This document shows, piece after piece, positions 9,751-40,911 of a stretch of 51,633 nt of DNA; the stretch's first letter is position 1; every line of letters starts with the position of its first letter. The notes beneath the pieces were generated by a model. That model had not been told where the DNA came from. It saw nothing but the letters and a program-made list of their open reading frames with translations, and ran no database searches. Source of the DNA: Clytia hemisphaerica (Eukaryota). Made by a program: the position numbers and the translations under genes. Location of the stretch: assembly GCF_902728285.1 (NCBI RefSeq), contig NW_027104315.1:354032-405664 (forward strand). Reading direction: 5' to 3'.

Positions 9751-10298
9751 CACATTTTGAAGAAACAAATAGGAATCTGATGGCACTTGTGGCACAAATG
9801 TGAAAAATATCAACGAAACATTTTCCCTCATCGAGGAAGAAGTTTGATTAGATCACTATAATTTTCCGAATAATTGTGTTCCCCGCTGTTTAATTTTCAA
9901 AAAGTATATACCCTACACCCAACGGTCTCATCATGAGACCCCCCTCCTGTTTATCTATTTTTGAAATTATTTTCAGCTACCATAAGCTGGACTGCTCTAA
10001 AAAACCTGGTTTTAGTTTATAACCACCTTATTTTAGGGTTTTTGGTGGTACAATTCCGGGCCTCTTTTTATTCAAACACCCAGCTTATTGGATTCTAGAC
10101 TAATAAACTCGTAACCTATATTTCTATGAAAATTTTCTTAATATTATCACGCTTCTAAAGTTAGTCATCTTCTTTCCGTTCTGGTTCATTATCCGTTTCC
10201 AGCCAGCATAGAACGTTATTTTAACGTTCATGTAACGTTATATGAACGTTAGGGCCGTCAGATAAACGTTGTTATGACGTTCGAAATTTCTATCACAG

Positions 10299-10508
10299 GC
10301 ACTACGTTACCAATTTGGTTAAATGGTTCACATCCAACGGAGGTTAATGTCTCAACGTCGGTCCCGGTGTGTGTTGTATATCCTGGGAATTGCTGTGCAC
10401 ATAAATACAACATTGATATCAAACGATGTCAAGATGAGGTACAAGGAGAGGATTATTTTGTTTACAATCTACCTGCTACTCCAGGATGTCCAATGTCTTA
10501 TTGCATCG
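10299..10508 (+). CDS. Exon, D8C domain C-terminal half (TTLPIWLNGSHPTEVNVSTSVPVCVVYPGNCCAHKYNIDIKRCQDEVQGEDYFVYNLPATPGCPMSYCIG)
   Basis: Matches uromodulin 'PMWLNGTHP…CC…YYVYNLTAPPECHLAYC'; the split glycine codon G|GC joins exons 4 and 5 exactly; donor G|gtaagc. Confidence 0.85.
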
Positions 10509-10517
10509 GTAAGCTTT

Positions 10518-10615
10518 CCCAGCTGGCACACAACATTGTTTCAACGTTTATTTAACGTTCACAACGTCCATATAAAGTTAGATGAACGTTAAAACAACGT
10601 TGTGTGCCAGCTGGG
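10518..10615. mobile_element. ~100-bp palindromic AACGTT-rich MITE ('CCCAGCTGGCACACAACGTTG…CAACGTTGTGTGCCAGCTGGG'), copy 1, starting ~10 bp after exon-5 donor
   Basis: Near-perfect internal palindrome; same consensus recurs at 25555-25652, 27758-27855, 31491-31587, 36062-36156, 37206-37292, 39175-39266, 40815-40911; degenerate or partial copies at ~10195-10290, ~26740-26930, 27443-27500. Confidence 0.85.
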
Positions 10616-10624
10616 TTTTACATC

Positions 10625-10880
10625 TACAGCCGTAGCATGACGAAGGGTAGAGAATCGAACTATGATGCACAAGGTTGGGGGTTTGACCCCTCTAGCCAGG
10701 TTTCTTTAAAGATTCCCAAAATGGTACTTGATACTTCTCTGCTTGGTGTTTAGCAACTAGAGAGATAGGTCAAGGACCAGTGAATGATTTCCAGGGAAAA
10801 ATGTAGCGCACTCCCCTGCCTTCGGGTAGATAGTTATAGAAAAGGGAGCTTTCGGGTATCTTTCGTCTGCGGGTCACAAA
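10625..10880 (+). mobile_element. tRNA-derived SINE copy (continues at 11118-~11135 after the nested MITE)
   Basis: tRNA-like head with GGTTCGA B-box; conserved core '…AAATGGTACTTGATGCCTCTCTGCTTGATG.TTAGCAACTA.AGAGA…CCTTCGGGTAGA.AGCTATA.GAAAAGGGAGCCTTTGGG…'; other copies at 24296-24575, ~30115-30355, ~47815-48040, fragment 1880-1940. Confidence 0.7.
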
Positions 10881-11117
10881 CATAGATTTATGAAGCCCGA
10901 AGGGCTAGATGGGGTACTTTTGCTGAAAAAATTGCCGTTGTCAGGTAGGAAATCCTACCTAGGTCACGTGACATTACAATAGAATTTCAGCGCTCGGCCA
11001 ATTAGAAGCTTCGCGGGTTTTTGAGAACAATAGCAACAATATTTTTCCGATATTCACTTTTTTTTCCTGCGATTGCTTAAAGCACGACATCTAGCCCTTC
11101 GGGCTTTATAAATCTAT
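10881..11117. mobile_element. 237-bp MITE with ~30-bp TIRs (CATAGATTTATGAAGCCCGAAGGGCTAGATG), inserted into a SINE copy; 8-bp TSD GTCACAAA
   Basis: Perfect TSD at 10873-80 and 11118-25; TIR family shared with elements at 75-352, 5670-5957, ~19440-19650 (partial) and 51285-51575. Confidence 0.85.
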
Positions 11118-11151
11118 GGTCACAAACTTTTTTACTTTACACAGGGATATG

Positions 11152-11887
11152 TTATAGCGGAGCTGGATGAAGGACGAGAATTCCTTAGCGGATTGCTTCT
11201 TTGTCTTTTCTATTGTAAACTGTTGATAATAGAAATCCATCTCTGTCCCCTTGAGTGTTCTGTTTTTTTAAGAAAAATGAAGCAGACAAAGTATTCATGC
11301 AGTACGTTTGCACATATTTTGCTATGATGTTCCCACTTTTCATCAAAATAATATTTGTAGAAGATACCCCAAAAGCTTCCTTGTAAATGAAATCTATTTT
11401 TATCAGCGTGTGTTATGAATTTGAGAAGATTTCATGATTTCTCTTTAAAAATTTCGGATGTAAATATTTTGACAAATATTGTTTCAATTGACTTGAAATT
11501 TTTTCCATAATCAGACATACCGACTTGCTATCTGAAAATATCAGTTAGAAAGTGAGGCACCCCGCGGTGTAGCGCGGTATTTCAAATGAAAAAGTACTAT
11601 TTATAATCTTAGAGAAGAAACTTCTTATAACTTTACCAATGAAAACAATGTTTTTCATTTTTTTAAATTGTCATTCACCAATGTTTTACAGACCCTCTTG
11701 ATAATTAAAAGTTTTTAATCGTGAACGATAAATGCAGAAGCAGAATCATTGGCTAAGAGGAAATCCAAATTTCACGAGTTTGTAATTAAAAAAGTTAAAT
11801 TTCATATCAAATTTTAATGTTAGCGACAGAGATAGAGCAAGGCTTTTTTAAATGTGCGTTATCCAGCTCCGCTATAAGATATCCCTG
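11152..11887. mobile_element. ~740-bp TIR element, copy B (near-identical to 7689-8430)
   Basis: Near-identity over the full length implies recent transposition. Confidence 0.85.
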
Positions 11888-12391
11888 ATTACAGTAACAA
11901 TCCCTTTGTTGATATGTAATCCGATCTCCTTTAGCCTTATGTGAAAATTTCTTAGATATGCCCTATAGCATCGGTGATCTTAATTTTTGATCATCATAAT
12001 AACAACTGTGGGGGGAGAGAATGAATTAGACTACGGTGTATAAGAATGGGTTTCCATCTAAAGGGAGAGAATCCATTAACAATGCTTTTGTTGATAGATG
12101 TGAAGCCACTTTTAGTTCCTCTGTAAAAATTCCACAAAGATTGATTGACTTATCACTTAGGTTTCCACTGGTCAGATTTCATATCCTATTTTATGTCGCC
12201 ATCACTTTTGACGTAAAAATCAGGTTTTCAGTCAATTTCTTTGAACTAAGCTTAGTCTAAAAGTTATATCGTAATGTAATTCTTTGCTTCTTTCTATGTT
12301 TTTTTATGTGTAATATTTTGATATTTTATATATCGAGACAGGGTGGAACCACCTCCAAAAAAAGAAAAAAATTATCCTGTGTTTTTTTTAG

Positions 12392-12454
12392 GAAATGAAA
12401 CACGTTGTCCTGACGGTGAAAGATCTCCAAATGGTTTCTCCCCTGGTTGCACAA
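12392..12454 (+). CDS. Small Cys-containing exon (GNETRCPDGERSPNGFSPGCT)
   Basis: Acceptor ttttttttag, perfect donor GTAAGT; phase-consistent on both sides. Confidence 0.6.
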
Positions 12455-12492
12455 GTAAGTTTTTTTCTGATATTCTTTACATGTTAATTTCA

Positions 12493-12655
12493 GTCAACCC
12501 TCTCTGACTCGATCTTCAAGGGACCAACTGCAACTTGACACAAGACTCCAGAAAGTAGTTTAAACCACTTTCCAGATGAGAAGACCATATTATTCAGTTC
12601 AAATTACAGAAAGATTCAAACAATGAAGGTTCGAATTAGAGAGGGCTGACTGTAA
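12493..12655. mobile_element. ~165-bp MITE with TIR CAGTCAACCCTCTCT…CGAATTAGAGAGGGCTGACTG; same family at 6420-6566 and 35295-35480
   Basis: Shared TIR 'ACAGT(C/T)(A/G)AC.CTCTCTAATT'. Confidence 0.65.
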
Positions 12656-13413
12656 TCAGACAATTTTCTTTCCCTAGGTCGTACATATTTTTTGCTATAA
12701 GATCAAACTGGAAACAAACTATTTAAGAGCATAACTCTTTGATAATAAGACGATTGTAAGACCAGTCTAAGAACATTTTAAAAGCTTTTTTGACACTAAA
12801 AGTCATATTGACAAAATGGTGCAATTAAGAGCGTTTTAAGAACGTTTTAAGACCTACAAAGTTAAGAGCACTAGAGGGCTTCAAAGATCTTGAATATTTT
12901 TTTAAAAACGTTGTTGCAAAATTCGATAATGTTTCTTGCCCATTTGACGCAAAAATGTTGCCACGAGAATTAAGTTTGAAGGTAAAGACAGAAATTTTGA
13001 GTGCTTTTGAAAGTCAGTGTCCACATCATTTAGAAACCAAAGTTGATTGTGAAATTTATATTTGCTTTGACCTGTACCTCGAGATATAAATACATGTTGG
13101 TGGACCAGTTTGGGTTCAAAATGTTAAAACATTTTAATATTTCCATTAACTACCTAATCGGCCGTTTTTACATCGGCCCTTATAGCCGTCATTTTTTGTC
13201 GCTTGTGTAAGAAGGGTCTAAATTAAAATAGGGCTTGGCTAAAAATGGAAAAAACGACCTTTGACGTAATGAAGGCCAGCGCAAACGGGGCCGGCACTAA
13301 ACTGGGGCCGGATTTAAAAAAAAAATGATAAGGTATAAGAATGACAGCTTTTATAAAAACTCATATGCCTCTGGTACTTTACAACATAATTGCCGTTTTA
13401 TTATTTTTTTTAG

Positions 13414-13655
13414 ATGAGTTTCCCAAATTGAAAGGAAAACCTGAAGTAACTGTTGGTAGTCATGGCAACCGAATACGTTTCACTTGTGATTTCGAACCAG
13501 AACAAATTAAGAACAATGCAAAATATAAAGTGTCATGGTACACACGCACATCTGATGGTAATGCAGAATTAGTGAAGACAGAGACGTTACATGGAAATCA
13601 AACAAAATCTTTTTTACAAAACACTGATGGGCAAAAATTCTGCTTACAGAAAAAT
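13414..13655 (+). CDS. Exon, Ig-like domain (…VTVGSHGNRIRFTCDFEPEQIKNNAKYKVSWYTRTSDGNAELV…GQKFCLQKN)
   Basis: Ig-type C…W…C spacing (FTCDF / VSWY / KFCL); acceptor tttttttag|AT, donor AAT|gtaagt; phase-consistent. Confidence 0.6.
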
Positions 13656-13704
13656 GTAAGTTGGTTCTTTTTTACAATATCCCAAATACAGTAAGTTAGC
13701 CTAA

Positions 13705-13905
13705 TGTCGACACCTCTCTTCTAATTTCGACACTCTTATTTAGAGATAGGAATAATAGGAAGGTCATAATCAATGATTGACAAAAGATTTATTCCTCTCT
13801 AATCCCTAAAGCAAAGAAAAATAATTTCAATCAGTGATTCCGACCTTCCAGTTATTCCTATCTCTAAAGAAGGGTGTCGAATTTAGAAGAGGGGTCGACA
13901 TTAGA
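13705..13905. mobile_element. ~200-bp palindromic MITE (AATGTCGACACCTCTCTTCTAATTTCGACAC…)
   Basis: Long perfect inverted repeat arms. Confidence 0.7.
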
Positions 13906-14395
13906 TCAACTTACGGTACAATGAAAGCACTTTAAAAGGATAATCCAAACTCAAACCAAGTCCCTTAGTTCGCTTTTTAGGATTCTGACAGCGCTAACGA
14001 TTGTATCACGTCAAGTAGTAAAATTAAAGGTTTTGTTTTTATTTAAGTGTTTCTGTTTCATATCAGACACGTATTTCATATCAGGACAGTGTCTTCCTAT
14101 TGTTATATTATGCTTATATAAGCAAAAAATGTTTTTCTTTTCAAGAGGTCTGTGTCAATTCAATGTGAAAAAGCTTGTAAATTAAAATTGATGAGTAAAC
14201 AAACATTATCACTCTTATTTTAAAACAAAACCTTTAATAAGTGATGCAAGTGGCTCTGGTTACGAGATTGAGGATAGCCAGATGGTTTTTGATTTAAGCT
14301 TGTTGCTTATTTCATGAGTCAAAACAATCAAATATTTTTGCCTAATTATTTTTTCCTAAATCGGATATAAAGCTCCTTTTTGTTATATTTTTCAG

Positions 14396-14482
14396 TTCTT
14401 TTGTGAGGTTAGTTCTGTATTCCCGGACTCCGAAGATATTTCTGATACCAAAAGAAGCGATGATTTCTTTGCTGGAATAAAG
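14396..14482 (+). CDS. Exon (FFCEVSSVFPDSEDISDTKRSDDFFAGIK)
   Basis: Acceptor tatttttcag, donor AAG|gtaaga; 29 codons, phase 0 in and out. Confidence 0.55.
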
Positions 14483-15182
14483 GTAAGACTTAAATTGATC
14501 CTTGTTCAGTGCAGATTCAAGCAAGGTTCTAAATCTTATGACGGAGGGTTTTTAGCCATACTCATTATAAGGAAATCAAGACGCTTAAATTTAAGCCTAC
14601 TAAGACCCACTACTGAATTGTGTGTGCAACTATTCTCAAATAGGATTTGGTAATGTAACAAGCTTTAAAGGTTTTATTTTTACATAAGTGTTACCGTTTC
14701 ATATCGGACACATATTTCATATCAGGACAGTGTCCAGTAGTTAATTTGGAGAGGGTGAAATGTATCTTCGAGAGGGGAGGCGGAAAATTTGATCCCCCTT
14801 CTGAAAGAAATTGCCCAAATTTTTCGTTCCGGTTAGGAAAGATACCCTTATATTTCAGCGCCGTTGATTTTAACCCCATTTGAAATTCAAAGGAAAAAAT
14901 TGCACTCAAACCTCATCCCCACTGGTTTTTTCTGAGCTGGGAACAATTAGAATTACAAACAATTAGGGAGTGAAACATCTGACCCTAAATCAAAGCTGTA
15001 TTATTTGTATAGTTGTAATGATGACAAAACATGGAGATATAAAGAAACAGGAGAAGTATGCTATTGTAACCAAGCTCGCTTTACGATTAAAAAAGTTACG
15101 ATGTATGTATGCTCATAATCTCATATATCGTGCATTTTTAATGAGCTCTTTTATCCATTGGTGAAATCTTATTGGCTCATTG

Positions 15183-15706
15183 GCTGCGTTTAGACCAACT
15201 GGCATTTGTAATTTGGCATTTGCTCATGAGTGAGTCGATTTTAATAGCTTTTCCATTGTATTTTCTGTCATGGCATTTAAGGAATCGTCTTTTTAGAGCC
15301 ATTACTGAAAAGGTGATTCCATCAAGTTCAACTTTGACAGATCAAACAATGAAAAGCATGGAATTTCTCAAAAACTGCAGTCATTAAGACTGAAACTTTT
15401 TGCCGTAGGGCTAGGCTATGGCAAATCTTGCAAATTTTACAATCTATAGAAAGAACTGAATAAAAAACGTGCAAAAACTTTAAAAAATCAAAAATATCAT
15501 TTTTTCTCTTTGTTTTGGTTCCTTTGTTTGATTTGAAATGCCAGAAAAGGGGATTCCTTTGCTCAAAATGGCATTTCAAATGCCAACGAAATGCCAACAC
15601 GCTGTCATCATTAGGCGTTTGACAAACCGAACAATTGCGCGGAACAATAGAATTCAAAAGAATACTGCAAGCAATTACAAATGCCAGGCTGGTCTAAACG
15701 CAGCCA
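15183..15706. mobile_element. ~525-bp MITE with TIRs GGCTGCGTTTAGACCA.C.GGCATTTG
   Basis: Inverted repeats at 15183-15215 and 15672-15706. Confidence 0.65.
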
Positions 15707-16628
15707 TTGAAGCTTTAGAAATTAGTTGAAACGAGATTCATTGTTTCTGACATCAGTGTAAGAAAATATTTCGACAAAAAGAGCCCTGTAAACTTGGCAA
15801 CCCTTCGTCAAATAATAAGATTTTTCGATCAATGTTTTTTTAAAGTGAACTCTATTGCTTGATACTTTCCTCCAAAATACTCCAGCCACTTAATGGCTAC
15901 AAATTGAGTCTGAAAGTGCGTGTGCTTATAAAGAACTTTTCATTTTTTGGCTTGAGAAAATATCTTTTCAAAACAAAATTGAACGGATAACGAAATGGAA
16001 CGTAAACTTGTGTCGTGGACGAAGTCTATATATTAATACGCTTAAACGTGTGTGTTTACAACGTTCTGTAAAAAGTGTTCGAAATTATAACAAAGCTCTA
16101 CAAAGCCTCTTCTTCACGGCGTTGAACCATCGTCTCTTTGCACCCCACGCAGTTTTCCTACCACTAGACTAACTTTGAGACGCCAGTATACTATTTTCTT
16201 TACAGCAACATTGGAGCTGGATGGGTTAAAATCAACCTTCTTCACAAATATATTTTTTGCTTTAGAAGATTCCTAATTCAGATGATCTTTAAAACTTTCT
16301 GTTTACTATAGCGGCTCCCTATCACTTTCAAAACTTTTCAAAGTCTTACAAAGTCACTCTCGAATGTCCAGCCACGATGGCTAGCCACGATGGCTAAAAA
16401 GATCGAAAATATAATTCTTCTAAGCCAATTACTTAATTGTGATTAAAAATTGCAATGCAATGTTATCTTTTATCTATTTTTTTCATTAAATGAAAATCGT
16501 ATCACTATTTTGGCAGTTATATTTCTTCCTACAGAGATTTTTTATATGTATAGTGATTCGCTGGATTGGGACACGCAGCGTGCGATGCTGCGCATACGGC
16601 TAGTTTTGTTTAATTTTCGAATATTAAC

Positions 16629-16892
16629 CCTTAGGAGGCGAAACACGTATATATACGTTTTGAAAAGGTCATTTTACCGATACACAGTCTTTTGGTCATA
16701 ACTGACCACTTCAGATTCAGACAAAAAAAATCTGCTATTTTTCGTAGCTGAGAGAAAGAGCTTTCTAGTGATACCAAAGTTGATACCTTAATCGTTTGTC
16801 CTGGTCGAGAAATTGCCTTTGAAAAAATAAATTTCCAGAAAAACATGATGAAATTTTTGGCCTTTTTCAAAAAAGTTAGCGGCTTTGAAAGG
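16629..16892. mobile_element. ~265-bp TTAA-flanked element (TTAA|CCCTTAGGAGG…GAAAGG|TTAA), piggyBac-like MITE, copy 1
   Basis: TTAA on both flanks, CCC…GG termini; second copy 17015-17282 is ~97% identical and 120 bp downstream. Confidence 0.6.
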
Positions 16893-17014
16893 TTAATAAA
16901 AATTTTTTAAATCTTTAAAACTGGCCCAAACTGTCCAAAATGACTATTGGTACTAAGAGAAAGTAGATAAAGGCATTTTAAATGAAAAATGAAAAATCAT
17001 TGAGTCCATGTTAA

Positions 17015-17282
17015 CCCTTAGGAGGCGAAACACGTATATATACGTTTTGAAAAGGTCATTTTACCGATACACAGTCTTTTGGTCATAACTCCTGACCACG
17101 TCAGATTCAGACAAAAAAAATCTCCTATTTTTCGTAGCTGAGAGAAAGAGCTTTCCAATGATACCAAAGTTAATACCTTAATCGTTTGTCCTGGTCGAGA
17201 AATTGCCTTTGAAAAAATAAATTTCCAGAAGAAAATGATGAAATTTTTGGCCTTTTTCAAAAAAGTTAGCGGCTTTGAAAGG
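17015..17282. mobile_element. ~265-bp TTAA-flanked piggyBac-like MITE, copy 2
   Basis: As above. Confidence 0.6.
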
Positions 17283-17723
17283 TTAAGAGGCTACAATGTT
17301 CAATACTGATAATTAAAACGTTCTGAGCAAACTTGAGTTCTACAAAAAAGGCGAGCTTAGAATTCCTTTTGATACATTTTGTAAAAGAAATCAATAGACT
17401 TTAACGACCAATTACCGACACATTCAACTCCTGTTTTTCTTTATACCTCCATGTGTTAATGTGCTAAATTTTTATTGATATCAATCTATATGATGATCAA
17501 TCTATACACTAATACTTCGAACAAACGCCCTCTTCTTTTAAACTCCCCCTCAAATAAAATTCTCCTTCAAATAAACGCCTCCCTTCTAAAATTGGTGTTT
17601 ATTTGAAACAATTAAACACCCTTCCCCCCTCGAATAAACGCACTATCTAAAATCCAAAAAAATTAATAAACGCCCGCGCCGCGTTTATTCCAAGTATACG
17701 GTATACATTTTTTTCCATTTTAG

Positions 17724-17887
17724 ATCAGCCCTACAACGATAGATTTGGCTGAGAATGATGCACCAAAAGAGTTAAAGTTCGAGACCACTGTACCAATCAC
17801 CTGCGAGCCATTATTTCCTGATTGTGCGGTCGACCTTGAAGTTGCACAAACGCAGAATAATGGCGTTCTGAGTTTTTGTAAAATAAG
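17724..17887 (+). CDS. Exon (ISPTTIDLAENDAPKELKFETTVPITCEPLFPDCAVDLEVAQTQNNGVLSFCKIR)
   Basis: Acceptor ccattttag|ATC; donor AG|gttact chosen so that phase fits exon 10; an alternative donor at 17878 is possible. Confidence 0.5.
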
Positions 17888-18184
17888 GTTACTTTATCAA
17901 CCAATACACGCTTTTTATAAGAACCAAAGAATATCATAATATGCAACTTCGAAGTCAATAATTTCGGAACATTTTGAGATCACATTTCAGGGGGTTTACA
18001 GGTTTTATTTAAACCATGCAATTTCTCATAAAATAAGACCAAGAATACTTACAAATAGCTGATAATAGGAACATTTATGCCTAAACCCATAAAGATGCAA
18101 TTTTTTGATATTCTTATCTTATAAAAGACGTGAATATTCAATTTGATACGGGATAATATTGCTTGTATAAACTACTGGATACAT

Positions 18185-18515
18185 CTGGTGCAGTGGCGTG
18201 GTGGCAGGGGGGGCCAGGGGGGCCAGCCCCCCCCCCCAGCGGGGCCCTTTTGAGAGGGGGCGCCAAAAAATAAGGGACGCCAAGAAGGATTTTTCAGGCA
18301 CCCATATCGAAAGATTGACAAATGAAAAAACAAAAATGGCGCCCCTCATTACCTCAAAAACTCAAAAATTTTTGGCTCGCTTCGCTCGCACACTCCCTTT
18401 TTGTGTTCATAAATGAGCGTATAGAGAGGGGCGCCAAAAACAAAAAATCTTTAAAAAGGGCGCCATATTTGCCTTGGCCACCCCAGAGAAATTTTCCCAC
18501 CACGCCACTGATCTG
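18185..18515. repeat. Foldback element with arms CAGTGGCGTGGTGG/CCACCACGCCACTG, long C/G homopolymers and 'AGGGGCGCCAAAAA' subrepeats
   Basis: Inverted termini and internal repeats seen directly. Confidence 0.6.
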
Positions 18516-23830: not shown

Positions 23831-23918
23831 GAAAAAAAAACTCCAACTAAATAAAACTTTTCACCGATAAGGTATGCTATGCACGACCTAGAAATGAAAA
23901 ACTTTTTGCTGTTAATAG

Positions 23919-27414: not shown

Positions 27415-27442
27415 GTGAAAAGCACAGATTTCTGTTTATCTA

Positions 27443-31587: not shown

Positions 31588-31639
31588 GTATATGGTGTAA
31601 AATTAGAAATGAGTTAACTTCATCATCATCGAATTTTAG

Positions 31640-32290: not shown

Positions 32291-32576
32291 TCAGATTCTT
32301 AAGAATCTCTAATCAACCAAGATTAGAAGCTTACAATGCATGAAAAACGTATACAGTATTTCATTCACATCCAATGATTGGCTGTAAGGCGTGAAGCAGA
32401 CTATAATGTTTTAGATTTTTTTTTTTTAATATAATTTTTAATTTGATAATCTTATACAGTACATTTTCTCACTCGTCAGGCATGCATGCATGTGTGAAGT
32501 TCGGTATAGGGCGTTACAGTCCTGTCAACTGCCTTTGCCCATTGAGGATCCAACTATTATAAAAAAAAATGATTAA

Positions 32577-33757
32577 GGGAGTGGTCAGAAAGTATCTACT
32601 AGGGGGGTGGAGGATTCTAGGGGGGGGTTCCAAAAATTTTTCGAGGGTTTAGGGGGGGGGGTTCCAAATCTTTTGGGCAACTCAAGAGAAAATGTAGGAA
32701 GTCTAATTTCATAGTTTTACGCTTCAAGATTTCAAAAATTTATTTTATTTGATATATGTACATGTCATACTAACATTATTTGGGCATCATCGCCTTGCCC
32801 TTTTGGTTTGTAGCATTGAGCTAAATGAGGGAAGCAGATTAGTGGCTTTCACAGCTCATCAGAGTGGTTTGAAAAAGTACTTTTCAGAAAGAAATTTGTC
32901 AAAACAAAGTGTCTTTTAGCTAAAATGGTAGTGAAAAACATCGAAATTTTCTCCCGTCGGCGCAAACCATGGTTGTGCCTCCTTAGTCTCTACTAATATC
33001 TTATAAATTATATACACAGAGCTTTGACAGACCCTGGAAAACCTGAAAATATAGGTTTTTCAAAAATAGAAATTTCAAACTCAGAGAATTTTATTTATCA
33101 GACTCCTTTTAACAACAGAATAGCTTATATTTTAGGGTCTCGAGTACCTGATCTTCAAAATTTTCTCCCTTCGGGGCCAACCATGGTGGCCCCTCAGGAT
33201 ATTTTGAGTAATTGAGTAATGCTTCTGTAATGTAGGGAGATTATGTATCAGGGAAAATAAGCCGTAATTTTCTCCCAAAACTTTGGGAAACTCAGAGAAA
33301 ATAACTCGTTGATTCTTATTTTAACCCTGGACTATTCCTATAGGAGATCTACCATTTTGATTGACGTTTACACCACGGGTTTTTTTCTTTTGTTTACTTC
33401 AGAGAAATTCCGTCGTAACCATGGAAATCGACGGAAAAAATCCCGTGGTGTAAACGTCAATCAAAATGGTAGATCTCCTAAAGGACTATACTCAACTTTA
33501 CAGGGCTAAACTATCTCCCTTACCTAATTTTGACTTAAAAACTGTCATACAAACAAATAATACTCTTTGTACCGCATCTGTATGAATTCTTTTTTTGCGT
33601 AAAAATTTTTCTAGTGGGGGGGGTGCGAAAAAATATTGGGCCTTATGAGGGGGGGTTCGAAATTTTTTTCCAGGCTAGGGGAGGGGGTGTGAAAGTATTT
33701 TGGGATTTTTCAAAATATCCTCCACTCCCCCCTAGTAGATACTTTCTGACCACTCCC
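32577..33757. mobile_element. ~1.18-kb non-autonomous DNA transposon with perfect 31-bp TIRs GGGAGTGGTCAGAAAGTATCTACTAGGGGGG, TAA/TTAA flanks; contains a ~140-bp hairpin MITE at ~33345-33485 and G-rich subrepeats
   Basis: TIRs and internal palindrome seen directly; solo TIR-like fragment at ~23103-23140. Confidence 0.8.
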
Positions 33758-34242
33758 TAATGTCGAAATTTCAAATAATCATCAAAAACAGCGAGCCAAC
33801 TTTTCTTTTGACACTTACCTTCTTTACACGTAAAAATACCAGAAAATGCAAATGTGTTCATCAAAACTCGTTACAGAATTTAAAAATATGGTAAAAAAAG
33901 CTATTCCCATGTGGAATAATATTTTTCGAATAGCTGAAAAAAAATATAGAAATCTAAAAAAGAAGTTTTGATATTATGTGTGTGCTATGTGAGAAAACTT
34001 TTGAAAAAATAAATCACCATTCCTCGACTACATGGTTGCTCAAAGAATTTGGGTCTGCATCGAGTTGGCTTGTGTTGGAAATGTTCATGACTTCCAAATA
34101 AGATGGAGAAACTGTTGGCAAAATACAAATAAGAAAAAAAACAAAATGAAATTTAAGAAGATTAAGAATCACTCTCGCTTGGAAATGAAGTCAACAGTTA
34201 CAATTACCAGCATAATACCTTTCTTTCTCTTGCCTATTTCAG

Positions 34243-34449
34243 ACAACTTGGCACCTGTGTTTCGACCAACTGAACCTATCAAAGTTTTTAAAGACCAAGA
34301 AATGAGCTTCGTTATCCCCGTATTTGATCCTGAACAGAAGAGGATGAAATATGAGTTGATAGAACCACCATCACCACCACTGGGTATGGAGATCTCCAAT
34401 GGTGGAGTACTGACATGGACACCCAAGGAAGAAAACAAAACGTTCACAG
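34243..34449 (+). CDS. Exon, dystroglycan-type cadherin-like (CADG/He_PIG-like) domain (DNLAPVFRPTEPIKVFKDQEMSFVIPVFDPEQKRMKYELIEPPSPPLGMEISNGGVLTWTPKEENKTFTG)
   Basis: Motifs 'F.IP..FDPE…Y.L…P.G+.I.NG.L.W.P'; acceptor ctatttcag|AC, donor CAG|gtaacc; the phase-1 G from exon 19 completes a GAC codon exactly. Confidence 0.65.
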
Positions 34450-34775
34450 GTAACCTTCAGTGTGCCAAATAGGTCCTTTTTACGCAGGACCTTATGACGG
34501 TTTTCCGTCTCTGTTTGGTACAAAAAGAGACTTTATCATCTCCAAATTCAACAAAAATTTTCATTGCCAAGTTCATTAACATCTTGAGACAAAAAACTTT
34601 GACCATTGAATTAAATGTCTTAAAGCCAACAGTAACATTATTTTACTTCCCAAAACCAGCGAGTTTATTTCAAGCAATATTCTTTAACATTAAATGATAA
34701 TATACTTGACTCATCTGAAAAGTTATATGGACCTCATTTACAAATCCTAACTAAAATTTCCTCTTTTTTTCCCAG

Positions 34776-34957
34776 TATGGATCAAAGTTACTGACATTTG
34801 TGGCAACAGTTCGTATTCTACATATGATTTTGAGGTTGTTAATTGTCCTTGTCAAGCTTTCAATGGTGCAGAATGCCAAAGAGGTGATAATGGAACTATT
34901 AGCTGTGTTTGCCTGCTGGATGTACCGGAAAAAAGTCGAAAAAAGCTTGCACTATAG
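34776..34957 (+). CDS. Exon: end of cadherin-like domain plus Cys-rich EGF-like segment carrying RGD (VWIKVTDICGNSSYSTYDFEVVNCPCQAFNGAECQRGDNGTISCVCLLD…); stop at 34955-57 if unspliced, or donor at 34922 (GAT|gtaccg)
   Basis: Acceptor tttttttcccag|TA; phase-consistent with exon 20; the 3' boundary is unresolved. Confidence 0.5.
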
Positions 34958-36061
34958 TTTGCTCTTAATAACTCGAAAGTAAAAGTTATGTTTTGCTTAG
35001 TTGAATGGACCTATCAGAGTTTTCTTGATTTTTTCTAAAACAGCGATGCATTGTGGGATTGTTTCAGGAGTATTACAATAAATCTCTTAGAATTCCTCGA
35101 GGAATTCATTATACCCCGGAAACAATCCCACAATGCATTACCGTTAAAGAAAATCAAAATACCCGAACTGATTTCTTTTTTCACTGAAGATTAAGCTTTT
35201 GAGTATGAAAAACTGAAACGTTTTTTAATCAAACTAGTGGAACTGTTAAATTTTTATATTCACGGCACCTGTCTGCAAGGGTAACCCTGCTTACAAAGAC
35301 TTACAGTCAACTCTCTCTAATTCGAACCTCTATTATTCGAATTTTTCTGTAATTCGAACTAAAATTGGTCTCTAAAGCTGTAAAGTGGTTTAAATTACTC
35401 TCTATTATTAGAATCTTTCTCTAATTCGATCAAAGTTTTTGATCCCTTGAAGATCGATTTAGAGAGAATCAACTGTACTTATAAAGTCAAAAATTCTTCA
35501 ACTATTAGCTTTGTGCGAAAAACTTCTCTTTACACACCACCGTGCCACAGATCCGGTGGACCCCCAGCCTCACATGTAAATAATACCCTAGGATTTAAAC
35601 CCCACTGGATAATTAAAGTATGATTTATCCCCATTCGAAATTGGGCGGCAAAAACTACACTCCAAAACCAAAACCACCCCCGTTTTTCTTTTTGAGCTAG
35701 AAACAATGATTTTCTGTCCCCTTTCGGACTTTCATCCCCACAGAGAGAAAAAAATCCTTTAGCAAAAATTGCCTTGACTTTGATTTTTTTTTATTTACTA
35801 AGGTCACCCACTCAACTAAGCTACTTTGAAATAATTAATAAAGAATAAAATATGATCTACAAATTTAAAATACCCGTAAAGAAACGTAATGGACAAGTAA
35901 GTAGCTTGACAAAATGATATGTAATCTTGATATCTCAATCTCTTTACTTTTCCAGTTGTTCCATTGGCGAAGAGTGTAAACAAAAAAGTAAGGAAAAACT
36001 GTCTTTTTGATTTTCTAAAAGTCCATTTTGGCTTAAAGTTTAGTTAAAATAATTTGGTAGT

Positions 36062-36156
36062 CCAGTTGGCAACGACGTTGTTTCAACGTCTATCTAACGT
36101 TATATAGACGTTATGAACATTAGATAAACGTTGAAACAACGTTGTGTGTCAGCTGG
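36062..36156. mobile_element. AACGTT-rich palindromic MITE copy
   Basis: Sequence identity. Confidence 0.8.
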
Positions 36157-36418
36157 TAGGCCACTCTTAGACCATGTTCAGACGTTACGGTTTCGTTTCG
36201 CTCCGGTTTGGTATTTGTTACGGATAGAAAGTGTTCATACTCATTTCGGAACATTTTGGAACAACAAAACGGAGCAGTTCTGTTCCGATGAAAATAGTAG
36301 AGCAAAACTGTTTCTAACTGTTTTGCTTTGTAACGTCTTCTTTTTTGACGTTTTCAATTTTGACGTTCAAGGAACGAATCGTCCATACAGGATTCGAAGC
36401 TAATCAATTCCTATTTAA

Positions 36419-37125
36419 GGGCTCTGACCATAGTCCAAAAATAGATTTTGGTATTTGAACATAAAAGTTATATTTCAGGTTCCTTAACACTTTTAACAAA
36501 GAATTGCCTTTATAAATTGCTTTTTAATCGAATCCCTTAAGAGTAATTAAGAATTTAATTGCAAAAATGACGTTATGAACTTTAAAAAGATGTTAATAAT
36601 ATGTTGCATCACCCTCTTTTACAAAAAGTGCTTAGTTTTAATGGGTAAATAACTTTTTTGTTTCAAAATTTCTTTACACTGTCCGCAAAGAATTGAACTA
36701 TTTCAAATTTTGCGGAAAATTTTTCTAAAAGAGTGTCAAAAGTTATGACTGTTTTTTTAAGCAAAATCCAGATGAAAAATTATGAAAAACCACTAATTTG
36801 AAGATTTCGAGACAAAGAGCATTACCAAAAATTTTCCGCAAAAATTTTTATTGTTCGGTAAAAGATACACCATCTACTGCGAAATTTCTTTCAAAATGTT
36901 TTTTCTTCGCCGAAACTAAGCTCTTCAAAGTTGAAATACTCTTCCTCGTAAAAGTCTTCATTTTCTTCTTCATCAAATTTTCTCAATGCAATTTTTAAAT
37001 TTTTAGATTCAGGAATAGTTTGTCTAACAGAAAATGTATAACATGCCATAGTTTTGTTAGTTACGTCAGTCAGAAAAGACATTTTAAACACGGCAATTAT
37101 GAAAAATTCACTATGGTCAGAGCCC
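36419..37125. mobile_element. 707-bp TTAA-flanked element with 15-bp TIRs GGGCTCTGACCATAG
   Basis: TTAA TSD at 36415-18 and 37126-29; partial 5' copy at 4217-~4350, only ~22 bp after the exon-1 donor. Confidence 0.75.
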
Positions 37126-37205
37126 TTAAGTTGTGCAGATCACCTGTTTCTTATGTTGGTTGGCTTAAATGTAATTTTGACCACCAGAATTCGCCCAAAA
37201 ATACC

Positions 37206-37292
37206 CCCAGCTGACACACAACGTTGTTTCAACGTTTTTCTAACATTCACAACGTCCATATAACGTTAAATGAACGTTGTGTGCCAGCTGGG
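37206..37292. mobile_element. AACGTT-rich palindromic MITE copy
   Basis: Sequence identity. Confidence 0.8.
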
Positions 37293-38772
37293 TAGTGTTA
37301 AATTCAAACTGTCATCCGAAATGTTATCTGGCACCCGATGTAGAAATTTTCTTCCGACACGCTAAAGCTCTGAAGGTCGGGAAAATTTTCAACATCTGGA
37401 AGAAATACATTACGGAATTTCGCCTGACCGCGTAATTTTTTAGAAAAATGGGCCCGAGTGCAATTTGGATAGGGAAGGTGTCATGGCCGACAAAATTTCG
37501 GTCAGAAAAAACTTCCAAAGGTTTCACGAAATAAATTCAAATACAAAACTTTTGGAGAAGGAATCATGCAAAATATTATCATTCTTTTCACAAGGAGGGC
37601 GGAGAATACTCAAATAAGTATTTTCCTTCTTAAACTGATCACAGACAAAAAAAATGAATAACATTGTACACAAAAAAGCCTGAAAGAAGAGAAAAGTCAT
37701 AATCAGCATCTATAATAACACTAAAAGAAAAACTAAAGCTATAGAAAATGAATACTAACCCTCAATGAAGACTTTTGTGAAGTTTAATAAAGATTTTATC
37801 CAAAAAACTTCAGTTCTGGAAAACTGAAGTCGGTTTGTCGGTTTGTCGGTTGTCGGCCGGTGGACAACAGTTATATTTGGAGGACGGTCTAAGATAGATA
37901 ACAACATGAAAGTTACTGATAAAAGCCTAAGCCCATAGGAACATACCTGCTTTAGTTTCTTTGGTCTTTGAATGGTATAAAATTTGAGAAAGTGCAGAAA
38001 AAATCAGCCATCAAAACAAACAAAAACAAAAGTTTGATTATCAACTTTTCTGTGGTAGAAACACATTTTTTGGGTTGGTGCACATACAGAAATTACACTG
38101 GATACTAAAACTAATATTCAGGGAGTGATAAGTACAGTTAAACTACAAAAAAATCCATCAAAAGAAACCAAAAACAACCATAACAGCACACATTTTTTGA
38201 AAATTACATCAGCCATGTTGTTTGTAATTTTTGCCGACATACTCATGACGTGGTAACTAACGACAGTGATTTGACGGTCTTTTTGAGGCGCCAGATCTCA
38301 AAAAAACAATTTTTGAGCGTTCAGCACGGCCCCGAAAATGAGGGCTAAACTTATGTCGGCACATCAATGGATGACTACTATTTCTCTCCGATGGTATATT
38401 GGACCGCTCCTTTAGAGCTTTAGCGTGGGCGGCCGCCAATACGCCATCGGAATATCAGATAATCCGAAATGTGGTGAACATTTTGAAGATTCCTCTCTAG
38501 TCTTCGGCTAGATTATCACATTTGATCTTACCCCCTAAGGACCTAAGGTGTTTAAGCGAATATCGGACAGAGATAGAGGTGCATGAGTTTTTTTATTTAT
38601 CAATGAAAAAATTTCAAAATTTCAAAAAGAGAATCAGTGGATTGGAATTTTCCTTGAAAGGAAAAATGTGAAAAAAGAATTCACACATCCCCTACGGTGT
38701 TTAGGTTCTGCAAATACTGGATGGATAGAAATGCATAAGTTTTAACATTTTCAATATTTCAACTTTCAATAG

Positions 38773-39162
38773 CATCTCCAATGAAACTCAACTGCTATCA
38801 AAACAAAATGGAAATTGGTTTAGAATTCGATCACCTATCACGTCACTCCTTACCTTATATCGTCAAATTTCATGGTGATAATAACTGCCCAACATTAAAT
38901 GCATCTTCAGCATCTTCAATATACGATGGACGTCTATGGATGAATGCAAATTACAGTGAATGTGGTATCAAAGCTTTTGAGAGCGGAAACAAACTAGTGT
39001 TCAAACAAATCGTTGAAGTTGTGTACGGAAAACAAATGAAATCTTTAGATGTTTATCGACATTTTATTGATACTTATAACGCTTCTTGTTCGATTGATAG
39101 AAATGTTACACATAAATTAAACATCGATGTTAAAGAACAGGAGACTCTCGACGATGAAACAG
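38773..39162 (+). CDS. Exon, ZP-N domain (…LNCYQNKMEIGLEFDHL…GDNNCPTLNASSASSIYDGRLWMNANYSECGIKAFESGNKLVFKQIVEVVYGKQMKSLDVYRHFIDTYNASCSID…)
   Basis: Matches uromodulin ZP-N 'ECGANDMKVSLGKCQL…DSRCSGF…W…GPCGT…Y.N.L…I.R…I.F.CSY'; acceptor ttcaatag|CA, donor ACAG|gtaggc; enters in phase 1, so an upstream exon is required. Confidence 0.8.
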
Positions 39163-39174
39163 GTAGGCACTTTA

Positions 39175-39266
39175 CCTGTAGCACACAACGTTGTTTTAAC
39201 GTCCATCTAATGTTTACAACGTCCATATAACGTTAGATGAATACAACAACGTCGGGCGCCATCCGG
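39175..39266. mobile_element. AACGTT-rich MITE copy (degenerate TIRs), 13 bp after the ZP-N exon donor
   Basis: Sequence identity; flanked by a duplicated 'GAAACAGGTAGG(C/T)ACTTTAC' segment. Confidence 0.75.
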
Positions 39267-40034
39267 GTTTCTATACTTGTGATGCATATTTATTTTTAAT
39301 GTATGTTTTTATGAGGCCCTCCAAGCGGTTTTCTTGATGTCGTACTAGAGACTTTCTTCTGGCGAGGAAACAGGTAGGTACTTTACAGGGGGGTTTCATG
39401 GTTGACGGAGGAGTGGAATCGGCCCTTTTTCGAACGGAGTGGCGGAATTTGACGAAAATTTTGACGGAATTTCGGAAATTGAATCTGCTGACGGAGATGG
39501 AAAATTAGACAATTTTAGTGTGGAAAAACGGAATTTAGCAAATGTTTTTGCAGTTTTTCGGAATTATGGCTAAAGATATTTGAATCACGCAGAATTTTTT
39601 ACAAAGAAAGCTTGAACTTCAAAGGAATCTTTGATGGTGGAGTTCTTATTTTCACCCTGAAAATTGTAAAAAATCACCAAAAGTCGTCCCTTTCCAGATA
39701 CACATCTTGAAAATTAGTAAAATTTGGGACCCTACCAGATATCTTCAGAGCCTAAAAAAGGGATCCTGACTAGCAACATATCCCCCCGTACCCAATTATG
39801 CTTACCTTTTCTGAAGGTGAATGGTAAAATACGATGGCTTTTTTACGGAAAAACTTAATGAAGAACTAACTCGGCAAAAAGTACTCTAGGGGTTCACGAC
39901 TTGGCGAAAATAAAGTTGATTCAATAATACAGTGGGACTTCCAATTTGCGGACACCACGGGGAAAAGGGTGGTTAGTGTCTGCTATAGTGTCCACTAATA
40001 AGTACATATTTCAAACTTTTTTTTTATTCAACAG

Positions 40035-40233
40035 AGGAGAACGCCGATTTCAAATTCAAATTTAGTGCTTTCAAAGACGATAAAACAGCGATCAGTGGTT
40101 TGGTCTTTCTTGGAGATTTAATCCATTTCGAATTGGAGTTACTTTCCAACTCTAAAGTTGTGAAAACGTCTCCTCAAGATTGTTTTGCTACGCGTTTGGA
40201 TGGAACAGGACGCTACGATCTTATTAAAGATAG
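40035..40233 (+). CDS. Exon, ZP-C domain start (EENADFKFKFSAFKDDKTAISGLVFLGDLIHFELELLSNSKVVKTSPQDCFATRLDGTGRYDLIKD)
   Basis: Acceptor attcaacag|AG, donor ATAG|gtaaac; resembles uromodulin 'F.V.MALFQ…L..[22 protein letters not shown]'. Confidence 0.8.
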
Positions 40234-40814
40234 GTAAACATATATTTATTGTATAGTCAAAAACGTCGCAAAAACCTTTCTTTTGGGATGAGATTTAAGT
40301 AATAAAATTTCAAATTAATTTCTCAAAAAATTGTGTGAAGAAAATCTCCATGAAGAAAAACAACAACAATAGGTAGAAAAGGTAGCTAAGAAATGCTATG
40401 TTCAGTTTCAAAACCTTCGCGAGTGTTTTGCCTTAATTTCTTTTTTAGCGGAAACCTTTACCAACTTTAATAACCTTAAAATCATTTAGACGATGCTATA
40501 GTCTGTTAAAGGGATAGTTTATCGGCGGTAAAATGTATATGTGTGGAGTTTTCAACCGTAATGTCAGTATACGGAAAAATTGGCGATAGAGTTTTGAAAA
40601 AATGTCAAGCTCTACCGGCTGTAAACTATTTTCGCCGCAAAAAAATATCTGTTTGCTTTGGCTTTGGTTTTATTTCTTAGTTAGTGATTTGAAATCATTC
40701 AATACACCTTTTCTAACGTAGCCGCCAATTGCCACGTGAGCATTGTTTTGTCCGTTTTACCACCCTAAAACCGTTCCAGTCTTTTTTTCGCACCTATAAG
40801 ACAATAGAAAAAAA

Positions 40815-40911
40815 CCAGCTGGCACACAACGTTGTTTAAACGTTAATCTAACGTTCACAACGTCCATTTAACGTTAGATTAACGTTAAAACAACGTTGTA
40901 TGCCAGCTGGG
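40815..40911. mobile_element. AACGTT-rich palindromic MITE copy, ~125 bp upstream of the ZP-C exon acceptor
   Basis: Sequence identity. Confidence 0.85.

What the first reader, a model, noticed from the sequence alone, without database searches (positions are those of the whole stretch)
10195..40911. AACGTT-rich ~100-bp palindromic MITE family saturating the introns of one gene, repeatedly a few bp from splice sites
At least 10 copies fall within ~30 kb, all intronic in the mosaic gene. Three start 10-15 bp after a splice donor (10518 after the 10508 donor, 25555 after 25540, 39175 after 39162). One degenerate copy runs up to the exon-5 acceptor at 10299. Others lie 40-125 bp from acceptors (31491, 40815). 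Each copy holds 5-6 AACGTT hexamers and can form a ~50-bp perfect hairpin in pre-mRNA. Read through in frame, the copies all give the same peptide ending (…QRCFNV.L.FTTSI*), which is why several ORF-track entries end identically. The proximity to donors suggests insertion-site preference or tolerated or selected hairpins near splice sites. This is a candidate for MITE-mediated exon shuffling or alternative splicing or termination.
Basis: seen in the sequence. Interest (0 to 1): 0.7.

Follow-up and report, generated by a model that had tools for sequence, protein, structure and literature searches.

The report
Palindromic jellyfish MITE hugging splice donors
A 98-bp hairpin-forming mobile element has peppered the ancient introns of one Clytia jellyfish gene; several copies sit unusually close to splice sites, but it looks like an ordinary non-autonomous transposon rather than a splicing or exon-shuffling device.

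Summary
The repeat family is real. The window is Clytia hemisphaerica DNA spanning a VWDE-like/ZP transcription unit. It holds 12 hits (8 near-full-length, 4 partial or rearranged) of a 98-bp, almost fully palindromic MITE. The element has 14-bp termini (CCCAGCTGGCACAC) and seven ACGT cores about 11 bp apart. A 2-bp TT/AA target duplication is seen in 7-8 of 13 copies.

Six more copies lie in the 3'UTRs of unrelated Clytia mRNAs.

Three independent copies start 9, 12 and 14 nt after donors, and one ends 18 nt before an acceptor. The nominal P is about 2e-4 to 5e-4 against uniform and repeat-compressed nulls. The TT target motif does not explain it. The test is post hoc and covers one locus, and a genome-wide census was not possible with these tools.

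The host introns are ancient: 13 junctions match Hydra in position and phase. Related sequences lack the MITE at the ZP donor. Introner origin and exon shuffling are therefore rejected.

No database protein carries a MITE-derived peptide, and the shared peptide ending is a trivial result of shared sequence. Strong hairpins exist only in the four intact copies folded.

Verdict: an ordinary, apparently undescribed MITE family. The exon-edge bias remains an open lead.

The parts
10198..10280 (-). Degenerate MITE copy (22% from consensus, terminal 14 nt lost or replaced). It ends 18 nt before acceptor 10299.
   Evidence: nhmmer E=1e-14; flanks; divergence; gap to acceptor
10518..10615 (+). Full-length copy (4% from consensus). 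It starts 9 nt after donor 10508 and is flanked by TT(T).
   Evidence: RNA hairpin -58.4 kcal/mol, z -10.9
10299..10508 (+). D8C-like exon of the VWDE-like gene, bracketed by MITE copies 18 nt upstream and 9 nt downstream. The two copies are 81% complementary over 73 nt.
   Evidence: junctions; inverted repeat I11; same junction column and phase in Hydra
25555..25652 (+). Full-length copy (7% from consensus). It starts 14 nt after donor 25540 and has a TT duplication.
   Evidence: hairpin -68.2 kcal/mol, z -13.2
26741..26802 (-). Partial copy abutting a TIR-bounded element of about 1 kb (25741-26736).
26831..26919 (-). Partial copy in tandem with the previous one, separated by a 28-nt palindromic spacer. 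It lies 251 nt before acceptor 27171.
27433..27530 (+). Truncated inverted duplicate of 27735-27830 (72 nt of MITE plus about 30 nt of its flank, 48 nt perfect). It starts 18 nt after donor 27414 and is not an independent insertion.
   Evidence: inverted repeat I25; alignment A2
27759..27855 (-). Full-length copy (13% from consensus), mid-intron.
31491..31588 (+). Full-length copy (9% from consensus), 51 nt before acceptor 31640.
   Evidence: hairpin -47.3 kcal/mol, z -9.6
36061..36156 (-). Full-length copy (10% from consensus), about 72 nt after the donor of mini-exon 35957-35987.
37206..37292 (+). Copy with an 11-nt internal deletion (one subrepeat unit). It lies in the 35988-38771 intron of isoform X3.
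39175..39267 (+). Degenerate copy (17% from consensus) that starts 12 nt after donor 39162 of the first ZP exon. It no longer folds better than shuffled sequence.
   Evidence: related donor regions lack it
40815..40911 (+). Full-length copy (7% from consensus, six intact AACGTT), 124 nt before acceptor 41036. It abuts a copy of a different MITE family (40690-40811).
   Evidence: hairpin -60.1 kcal/mol, z -15.3
7211..41813 (+). Host transcription unit. VWDE-like exons run from 7211 to 35987, joined in RefSeq isoform X3 to the ZP-domain exons 38772-41813. All 12 copies lie in its introns.

Best explanation
This is a lineage-specific, non-autonomous cut-and-paste DNA transposon (a MITE with foldback-like architecture) of Clytia hemisphaerica.

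Structure. The 98-bp unit has 14-bp terminal inverted repeats (CCCAGCTGGCACAC...GTGTGCCAGCTGGG). Between them lie seven ACGT-core subrepeats spaced 11, 11, 9, 11, 11 and 11 bp apart, roughly one helical turn. I infer that these form a one-sided array of binding sites for a transposase, or its DNA-binding partner, supplied in trans.

Insertion. It integrates at TT/AA dinucleotides, duplicating 2 bp. It amplified in a star-like burst into transcribed gene bodies, both introns and 3'UTRs.

History at this locus. About ten independent copies landed in introns that already existed in the common ancestor of Clytia and Hydra. They are transcribed with the pre-mRNA and removed with the intron.

Position of survivors. 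Surviving copies may sit as near as 9-14 nt downstream of donors, just outside the -3..+6 donor signal. They approach acceptors less often, because acceptors need a branch point and pyrimidine tract.

What remains open. The excess of donor-proximal copies is most economically read as tolerated edge insertions in one TE-saturated gene, singled out after the fact. A genuine exon-edge insertion bias cannot be excluded and is listed as the main rival.

Shown: the family, its structure, its copies, the junction distances, the age of the introns, and the 3'UTR copies.
Inferred: transposase binding, the transposition mechanism, and neutrality.
For: - Family and anatomy. The 98-nt consensus is self-complementary at 82 of 98 positions.
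- No coding capacity: stop codons in all frames (direct translation of the consensus; ORF ends).
- Target duplication: a 2-bp TT/AA repeat in 7-8 of 13 copies, against a cross-pair rate of 0.26. Three-bp repeats match in only 2 of 13.
- Dispersal to unrelated loci: six mRNA contigs each carry one copy in the 3'UTR. Four of their proteins were checked and are 94-99.8% identical to C. hemisphaerica RefSeq proteins.
- Star-like relationships among copies.
- Secondary insertion into old introns: 13 junctions share alignment column and phase with the Hydra orthologue. The 92-kb Hydra locus has no copy.
- Related ZP exons keep the donor but have no MITE.
- No MITE-derived peptide in 5.8 billion proteins.
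- Only sub-threshold Rfam hairpin look-alikes.
- The donor-over-acceptor asymmetry of very close TEs matches mammals. There, only 10% of full-length AluY within 20 bp of an exon are near acceptors (PMC3088655).
Against: - Donor and boundary proximity is nominally significant in this window: P about 5e-4 for 3 of 10 and 3e-4 for 4 of 10 under a uniform null, and P about 2-3e-4 after removing in-window repeats.
- The TT/CTT target motif is only 1.3-1.7 times commoner near donors.
- Eight other inverted-repeat elements found by scan in the same introns lie 56-1846 nt from donors.
- In mammals, TEs including DNA transposons are depleted within 50-100 bp of exons (PMC3088655). The pattern here runs against that norm.
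- Two of the proximal copies are among the youngest (4% and 7% divergence), so survivorship alone does not explain them.
- No autonomous partner and no superfamily could be identified.
Confidence: 0.6

Rival explanations
1. True exon-edge targeting. The transposase integrates preferentially at the borders of coding exons. One route is nucleosome-free linker DNA next to exon-positioned nucleosomes. Another is coupling to paused or spliceosome-engaged transcription at 5' splice sites. Either way, copies would pile up about 10 nt after donors and just after stop codons.
For: - The nominal enrichment in the window survives two null models and a target-motif control.
- Exon 10299-10508 is bracketed at -18 and +9 nt.
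- Two of six 3'UTR copies lie 5 and 29 nt after the stop codon.
- An unrelated MITE family also starts about 11 nt after donor 22620.
- DNA transposons and introners are known to prefer nucleosome linkers (PMC9860276).
Against: - The evidence is one locus, selected post hoc, with only 3-4 independent events.
- The other four 3'UTR copies lie 227-540 nt from the stop codon, and six or seven intronic copies lie 51-1200 nt from any boundary.
- No chromatin data are available.
- No independent Clytia locus could be fetched.
Confidence: 0.27
2. Selected RNA function. The stable stems of about 40 bp next to 5' splice sites would modulate U1 access or splicing kinetics, feed Dicer or ADAR pathways, or pair across exon 10299-10508 to drive back-splicing into a circular RNA.
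For: - Very stable hairpins in intact copies (z -9.6 to -15).
- Flanking copies are 81% complementary across the 210-nt exon (I11).
- CpG positions in the copies are not hypermutable: 20/193 substitutions against 100/1139 at other positions.
Against: - Two of the boundary-proximal copies (39175 and 10198) have lost the hairpin (z -1.6 and -2.8), as expected under neutral decay.
- The MITE is absent from the same donor in related sequences and from the Hydra locus.
- Rfam matches are far below the gathering scores.
- The hairpins start 9-14 nt from the donor, not at it, so they are not mirtron-like.
- Intramolecular folding of each palindrome competes with pairing across the exon.
Confidence: 0.07
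3. Introner-like origin. The MITE created these introns when it inserted into exons, and the introns later grew.
For: Copies lie at intron edges. The family is a short TIR element in an aquatic eukaryote, the setting in which introners are common (PMC9860276).
Against: - Junctions 10508, 25540 and 27414, plus ten others, have the same alignment column and phase in Hydra. The introns therefore predate the family, which the Hydra locus lacks.
- The donor GT lies 9-14 nt outside the element in unrelated sequence.
- The ZP donor is conserved without any MITE in relatives.
Confidence: 0.02
4. MITE-mediated exon shuffling or exon capture assembled this mosaic gene, with two flanking copies moving an exon as a composite transposon.
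For: Exon 10299-10508 is tightly flanked by two copies. The Clytia unit joins ZP exons that the orthologues lack.
Against: - The bracketed D8C-like exon sits at the same place in all hydrozoan and mollusc homologues, and its junctions are conserved in Hydra.
- Domain order D8C-Ig-VWD-Vwde-EGF is shared.
- The ZP junction in isoform X3 is out of frame, which looks like read-through between neighbouring genes. No MITE flanks the first ZP exon upstream.
Confidence: 0.02

Closest known systems
[quoted passage not shown]
   Same: It is short (98 bp) and non-coding, and nearly the whole element is an inverted repeat made of 11-bp units. It has a short target duplication and many dispersed copies with star-like relationships. 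It prefers genic sites such as introns and 3'UTRs.
   Different: The 2-bp TT/AA duplication fits none of the classical MITE-bearing superfamilies: Tc1/mariner has TA, PIF/Harbinger has TWA, piggyBac has TTAA and hAT has 8 bp (my own knowledge of those families). Drosophila FB elements are kilobases long with 9-bp duplications. No autonomous partner was found.
Introner elements (Micromonas, Aureococcus and others; Gozashti et al. 2022, PMC9860276)
   Same: Both are short TIR/TSD DNA elements in an aquatic eukaryote, found at intron edges. The nucleosome-linker preference known for introners could explain an exon-edge bias.
   Different: Here the introns are ancient and conserved with Hydra. The splice sites lie outside the element, and the introns are 0.9-2.9 kb and hold many other repeats. 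No paper in the searched library links introners with Clytia.
TE 'underrepresentation zones' near exon boundaries in mammalian introns (Zhang, Romanish and Mager 2011, PMC3088655)
   Same: Both show the same asymmetry. Elements that do survive within 20 bp of an exon are mostly on the donor side. Here the count is 3-4 donor-side against 1 acceptor-side.
   Different: Mammalian TEs, including DNA transposons, are depleted within 50-100 bp of exons. This family is nominally enriched there in this locus.
Intronic inverted-repeat hairpins with RNA consequences: inverted Alu pairs (PMC11263572, listed) and MITE-derived miRNA precursors such as MADE1/miR-548 (my own knowledge)
   Same: Both give long, near-perfect stems in pre-mRNAs and 3'UTRs, and complementary copies flank an exon here.
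   Different: There is no evidence of processing. Rfam matches are 27-43 bits against gathering scores of 67-100. Decayed copies have lost the fold.
Subterminal hexamer arrays bound by transposases, e.g. AAACGG repeats of maize Ac/Ds (my own knowledge)
   Same: Both have a repeated short motif (AACGTT here) filling the subterminal regions at regular spacing.
   Different: hAT elements make 8-bp duplications. The motif here is itself palindromic and phased at about one helical turn. Binding has not been tested.

Membership tests
MITE (non-autonomous class II element) | Short length (well under 800 bp) and no coding capacity | tested here: met
   98-nt consensus. All three frames of the consensus end in stop codons within 11-19 codons (direct translation; ORF ends).
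MITE (non-autonomous class II element) | Terminal inverted repeats | tested here: met
   Termini are CCCAGCTGGCACAC / GTGTGCCAGCTGGG. 82 of 98 consensus positions are self-complementary.
MITE (non-autonomous class II element) | Target-site duplication of fixed length | tested here: inconclusive
   A 2-bp TT or AA repeat occurs in 7-8 of 13 copies against a cross-pair rate of 0.26. Three-bp repeats match in 2 of 13 and 4-bp in 0 of 13. The sample is small and several copies are old.
MITE (non-autonomous class II element) | Many similar copies at unrelated loci | tested here: met
   12 hits in the window, plus one copy in each of six unrelated mRNA contigs; the four whose proteins were checked are Clytia. 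Pairwise identity is mostly 80-93% and star-like.
MITE (non-autonomous class II element) | Empty sites in related sequences (presence/absence) | tested here: met
   The ZP-exon donor is conserved without the element in three related contigs. The Hydra orthologous locus has none. No exact empty-site allele from the same species was available.
MITE (non-autonomous class II element) | An autonomous partner with the same termini encoding a transposase | not testable with these tools
   There is no transposase ORF in the window. The Clytia genome could not be searched.
Introner elements | The element constitutes the intron and supplies or creates its splice sites | tested here: not met
   Donors lie 9-14 nt outside the element in unrelated sequence. 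The host introns are 872-2902 nt.
Introner elements | Host introns are recent, lineage-specific gains | tested here: not met
   13 junctions, including 10508, 25540 and 27414, share alignment column and phase with Hydra.
miRNA precursor / mirtron | Match to a curated family at gathering score; for a mirtron, a hairpin end defined by the splice site | tested here: not met
   The best Rfam hits on the copies score 27-43 bits against thresholds of 67-100. The hairpins start 9-14 nt after the donor.
Tc1/mariner (Stowaway-type) MITE | TA target duplication | tested here: not met
   Flanks are TT or AA. None of 13 copies shows TA on both sides.
piggyBac-type MITE | TTAA target duplication with CCC...GGG termini | tested here: not met
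   The termini are CCC...GGG, but no copy is flanked by TTAA.
hAT-type MITE | 8-bp target duplication | tested here: not met
   No direct repeat longer than 3 bp flanks any copy.

The most novel reading that the evidence does not exclude
A cnidarian DNA transposon family whose integration is aimed at the edges of coding exons: about 10 nt downstream of 5' splice sites, and just after stop codons. The mechanism would be either chromatin (linker DNA beside exon-positioned nucleosomes) or coupling to co-transcriptional splicing. This is the opposite of the usual depletion of TEs near exons. It could represent a pre-adaptive state on the way to introner-like behaviour.
Probability: 0.25. Interest if true: 0.7.

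Novelty: new member of a known kind. Interest (0 to 1): 0.35.

Why it matters
If the family is simply a MITE, its value is practical. The 98-nt consensus is ready for masking and annotating the Clytia genome. It also explains spurious ORF endings and assembly breaks, since three of six mRNA contigs end at or near a copy.

If the exon-edge bias proves genome-wide, it would be a rare animal example of a transposon that targets exon-intron junctions. That would make two questions testable in a tractable laboratory jellyfish. One is how chromatin or splicing machinery guides integration. The other is how much structured RNA a 5' splice site tolerates a few nucleotides away.

Tried and rejected
1. 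Genome-wide census. This was impossible. Clytia RefSeq proteins P0001, P0002 and P0024 are not in the gene-position index. P0028 returned only RNA-seq contigs.
2. Search with MITE read-through peptides, to find exonised copies and new loci. It found no candidates and used the last homology search.
3. Pattern scans of viral and prokaryotic genome collections. Both returned zero. The metagenome scan gave 7 contigs.
4. CpG decay as a sign of gene-body methylation or as a clock. Rejected: CpG positions changed at 20/193 against 100/1139 at other positions.
5. Local hopping as the cause of the cluster. Not supported: copies in the window are as close to copies from other loci as to each other, except 25555 and 40815 at 93%.
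6. Target motif as the cause of donor proximity. Rejected: TT/CTT/CTTT is only 1.3-1.7 times enriched at +7..+20.
7. Intron growth by later TE insertions as the cause. It shortens the null only slightly. Repeats that occur once in the window could not be masked.
8. Generic behaviour of all hairpin elements. The eight other inverted-repeat elements found by scan lie 56-1846 nt from donors. One further family does start at +11.
9. Rfam membership. Only sub-threshold miRNA-like hairpin hits.
10. Transmembrane or cytoplasmic-tail exons of the orthologues between 34.9 and 38.8 kb. Not found.
11. Exon 1 of P0001. Not found in the window.
12. Literature. No paper links Clytia with introners, none of the listed hits of two TE searches describes this family, and the genome paper reports only 35% GC and about 41% repeats.


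Full report
WHAT THE WINDOW IS

The window has 31-39% GC. A concatenation of its open exon-like ORFs matched a Clytia hemisphaerica RefSeq protein, 'von Willebrand factor D and EGF domain-containing protein-like isoform X3' (P0001, 1121 aa, E=2e-274). tblastn and an exact spliced reconstruction place P0001 on the + strand in at least 19 exons from 7211 to 35987. Its last three codons (HLQ*) come from acceptor 38772.

That acceptor opens the first exon of a ZP-domain coding region: 38772-39162, 40035-40233, 41036-41334 and 41650-41813. This region is also represented by a ZP-only transcript protein (P0014). In isoform X3 the ZP exon is read out of frame. Hydrozoan orthologues end in EGF, transmembrane segment and tail, with no ZP domain. 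The 'mosaic gene' is therefore one RefSeq transcription unit, but it probably joins two neighbouring genes.

A FAS1-domain gene lies downstream (about 42.9-50.5 kb) and C-type-lectin exons lie upstream. The genome paper gives 35% GC and about 41% repeats for Clytia and does not describe individual TE families.

THE OBSERVATION

AACGTT occurs 47 times against 20.0 +/- 3.9 expected, and 36 of these lie in the repeat. A profile built from four copies finds 12 significant hits:
- 10198-10280
- 10518-10615
- 25555-25652
- 26741-26802
- 26831-26919
- 27433-27501
- 27759-27856
- 31491-31588
- 36061-36156
- 37206-37292
- 39175-39267
- 40815-40911

There are none in the other 21 kb of the window.

Together with copies from elsewhere, these give a 98-nt consensus. 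It has termini CCCAGCTGGCACAC / GTGTGCCAGCTGGG and seven ACGT cores (six AACGTT, one AACGTC) spaced 11, 11, 9, 11, 11 and 11 nt apart. It is self-complementary at 82 of 98 positions, and copies diverge 3-22% from it. Intact copies fold into stems of about 37-41 bp with a 14-20-nt loop (-47 to -68 kcal/mol, z -9.6 to -15). The degenerate copies at 39175 and 10198 do not fold better than shuffled sequence.

Cores start 9, 14 and 12 nt after donors 10508, 25540 and 39162. The degenerate copy ends 18 nt before acceptor 10299. Others lie 51 and 124 nt before acceptors.

- '5-6 hexamers in each copy'. The range is 1-6 per hit (2-6 in full-length copies).
- '50-bp perfect hairpin'.
- The weight given to the shared peptide ending. 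It occurs in two ORFs and only reflects shared sequence in one frame.

The copy at 27433 is not an insertion. It is a truncated inverted duplicate of the 27759 copy together with about 30 nt of that copy's flank.

WHAT KIND OF ELEMENT

The element is short, non-coding and bounded by inverted repeats, and it is found at unrelated loci. A pattern scan of JGI metagenome records returned seven contigs. Six are intron-less mRNA contigs with a long ORF and one full copy in the 3'UTR, at 5, 29, 227, 303, 532 and 540 nt after the stop codon. Four of their proteins were checked and are 94-99.8% identical to C. hemisphaerica RefSeq proteins: a J-domain protein, RSPH4A-like and two uncharacterised proteins.

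The flanks show a 2-bp direct repeat (TT six or seven times, AA twice) in 7-8 of 13 copies, against a cross-pair rate of 0.26. Longer repeats are not supported. Relationships are star-like.

This is a MITE with miniature foldback architecture. The duplication and termini fit none of the usual superfamilies: not TA, not TTAA despite CCC...GGG ends, not 8 bp. No autonomous partner is visible. The helical phasing of the ACGT cores suggests a one-sided array of protein-binding sites. This is an inference only.

AGE OF THE HOST INTRONS

I fetched the Hydra vulgaris orthologue (P0006), an 88-kb gene, and mapped its junctions. Thirteen Clytia junctions fall in the same alignment column and the same phase as Hydra junctions, including 10508, 25540 and 27414. 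The Hydra locus has no copy of the element.

Three related contigs carrying the first ZP exon (73-79% nucleotide identity) keep the donor at the same place but have no MITE within 390-520 nt of intron.

The copies are therefore secondary insertions into old introns. This rejects an introner-like origin. It also rejects exon shuffling for the bracketed exon, which occupies the same position in all homologues.

IS THE SPLICE-SITE PROXIMITY MORE THAN CHANCE?

Within this locus, nominally yes.
- Uniform placement in non-exonic sequence gives 0.17 expected copies within 20 nt after a donor, against 3 observed among 10 independent copies (P about 5e-4). For either boundary it gives 0.32 expected against 4 observed (P about 3e-4). 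Counting all 12 hits gives P about 1e-4 to 3e-5.
- Removing all other in-window repeats from the intron lengths, which approximates shorter introns at the time of insertion, changes little (P about 2-3e-4).
- The TT/CTT/CTTT target motif is only 1.3-1.7 times commoner at +7..+20.
- Eight other inverted-repeat elements found by scan in the same introns lie 56-1846 nt from donors. One unrelated 215-bp MITE does begin about 11 nt after donor 22620.
- In mammals TEs are depleted near exons, and the few very close ones are mostly on the donor side (PMC3088655). The asymmetry here is expected; the excess is not.

The caveats are decisive for the verdict:
- The pattern was picked post hoc by a reader scanning for oddities.
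- It rests on three or four independent events in one transcription unit.
- I could not fetch any independent Clytia genomic locus, because the Clytia assembly is not in the gene-position index (one search returned only transcripts).
- Six or seven intronic copies and four of six 3'UTR copies are not near any coding boundary.

I put about 25-30% on a genuine exon-edge insertion bias. Nucleosome-linker targeting, known for Hermes and for introners, would be the most plausible route (PMC9860276).

FUNCTION

Nothing supports a selected role.
- Boundary-proximal copies include two that have lost the hairpin.
- Relatives lack the element.
- Rfam gives only sub-threshold hairpin look-alikes.
- No protein in 5.8 billion shares even three 5-mers with the read-through peptides.
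- Isoform X3's premature stop is a frame effect at the ZP acceptor, unrelated to any MITE.

The two copies flanking exon 10299-10508 are 81% complementary over 73 nt and could in principle promote back-splicing. However, each copy folds on itself first. This is speculation.

The degenerate copy upstream of acceptor 10299 is in register such that its lost terminus would have ended at the acceptor AG. The branch point and pyrimidine tract of that intron must therefore lie in, or have replaced, MITE sequence.

VERDICT

The finding is a real and apparently undescribed MITE family of Clytia. No paper linking Clytia with introners was found, and none of the listed hits describes this family. It is ordinary in kind. 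The one unusual feature, copies sitting 9-14 nt after donors, is statistically suggestive in this locus only. It needs the genome-wide census described under next steps.

Noticed in passing
27433-27530 and 27735-27830: An inverted segmental duplication of about 100 nt, with a 48-nt perfect core. It comprises the left 72 nt of a MITE copy plus about 30 nt of its flank, with arms 209 nt apart. It looks like a rearrangement seeded at the palindrome rather than a transposition.
   Followed up: partly
22632-22845 (relatives 40690-40811 and 51166-51318): A different palindromic MITE family of about 215 bp. One copy begins about 11 nt after donor 22620, and another abuts the AACGTT-MITE at 40812.
   Followed up: partly
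7689-8436 and 11136-11887: A repeat of about 750 bp, 99-100% identical, in two neighbouring introns (spacing about 3455 bp). It is either a very young TE or a recent local duplication.
   Followed up: no
35957-35987 and 38772-38783: RefSeq isoform X3 joins a 31-nt mini-exon to the acceptor of the first ZP exon in the wrong frame, giving HLQ-stop. This suggests a read-through (conjoined) transcript between a VWDE-like gene and a ZP gene. The hydrozoan orthologues lack a ZP domain.
   Followed up: partly
25741-26736, 26741-26919: An element of about 1 kb bounded by 103-nt inverted repeats (86% complementary). It is followed by two partial MITE copies in tandem, separated by a 28-nt palindromic spacer.
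   Followed up: no
10277-10298: The degenerate MITE copy is in register such that its missing 14-nt terminus would end at the acceptor AG. The branch point and pyrimidine tract of this conserved intron now lie within, or replace, MITE sequence.
   Followed up: no
23638-23822: A tandem array of five to six 31-bp units (TTCGGTCGGTGAAAAGTGACGAATTTGAAAT-like) inside an intron.
   Followed up: no
13712-13895, 33332-33489, 49699-49865, 28139-28194: Further hairpin-type elements with 55-82-nt arms, 82-95% complementary. 33331-33490 gives a sub-threshold Rfam MIR2670 match (48 bits against 117).
   Followed up: no
L003, L004, L005 (metatranscriptome contigs): Three of six Clytia mRNA contigs end inside a MITE copy or within 40 nt of one. 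The repeat appears to break transcript assemblies. In L005 the copy is preceded by GGTAAGGGCTT, a donor-like motif 10 nt upstream, inside a 3'UTR.
   Followed up: partly
L001 1377-1585 and 2505-2653: A 4-kb metagenome contig (41% GC) carries clusters of degenerate copies of the same family. Its source organism was not determined.
   Followed up: no
17887 and 34934: Two unusual donors used by the RefSeq model: GTTACT and GTCGAA.
   Followed up: no
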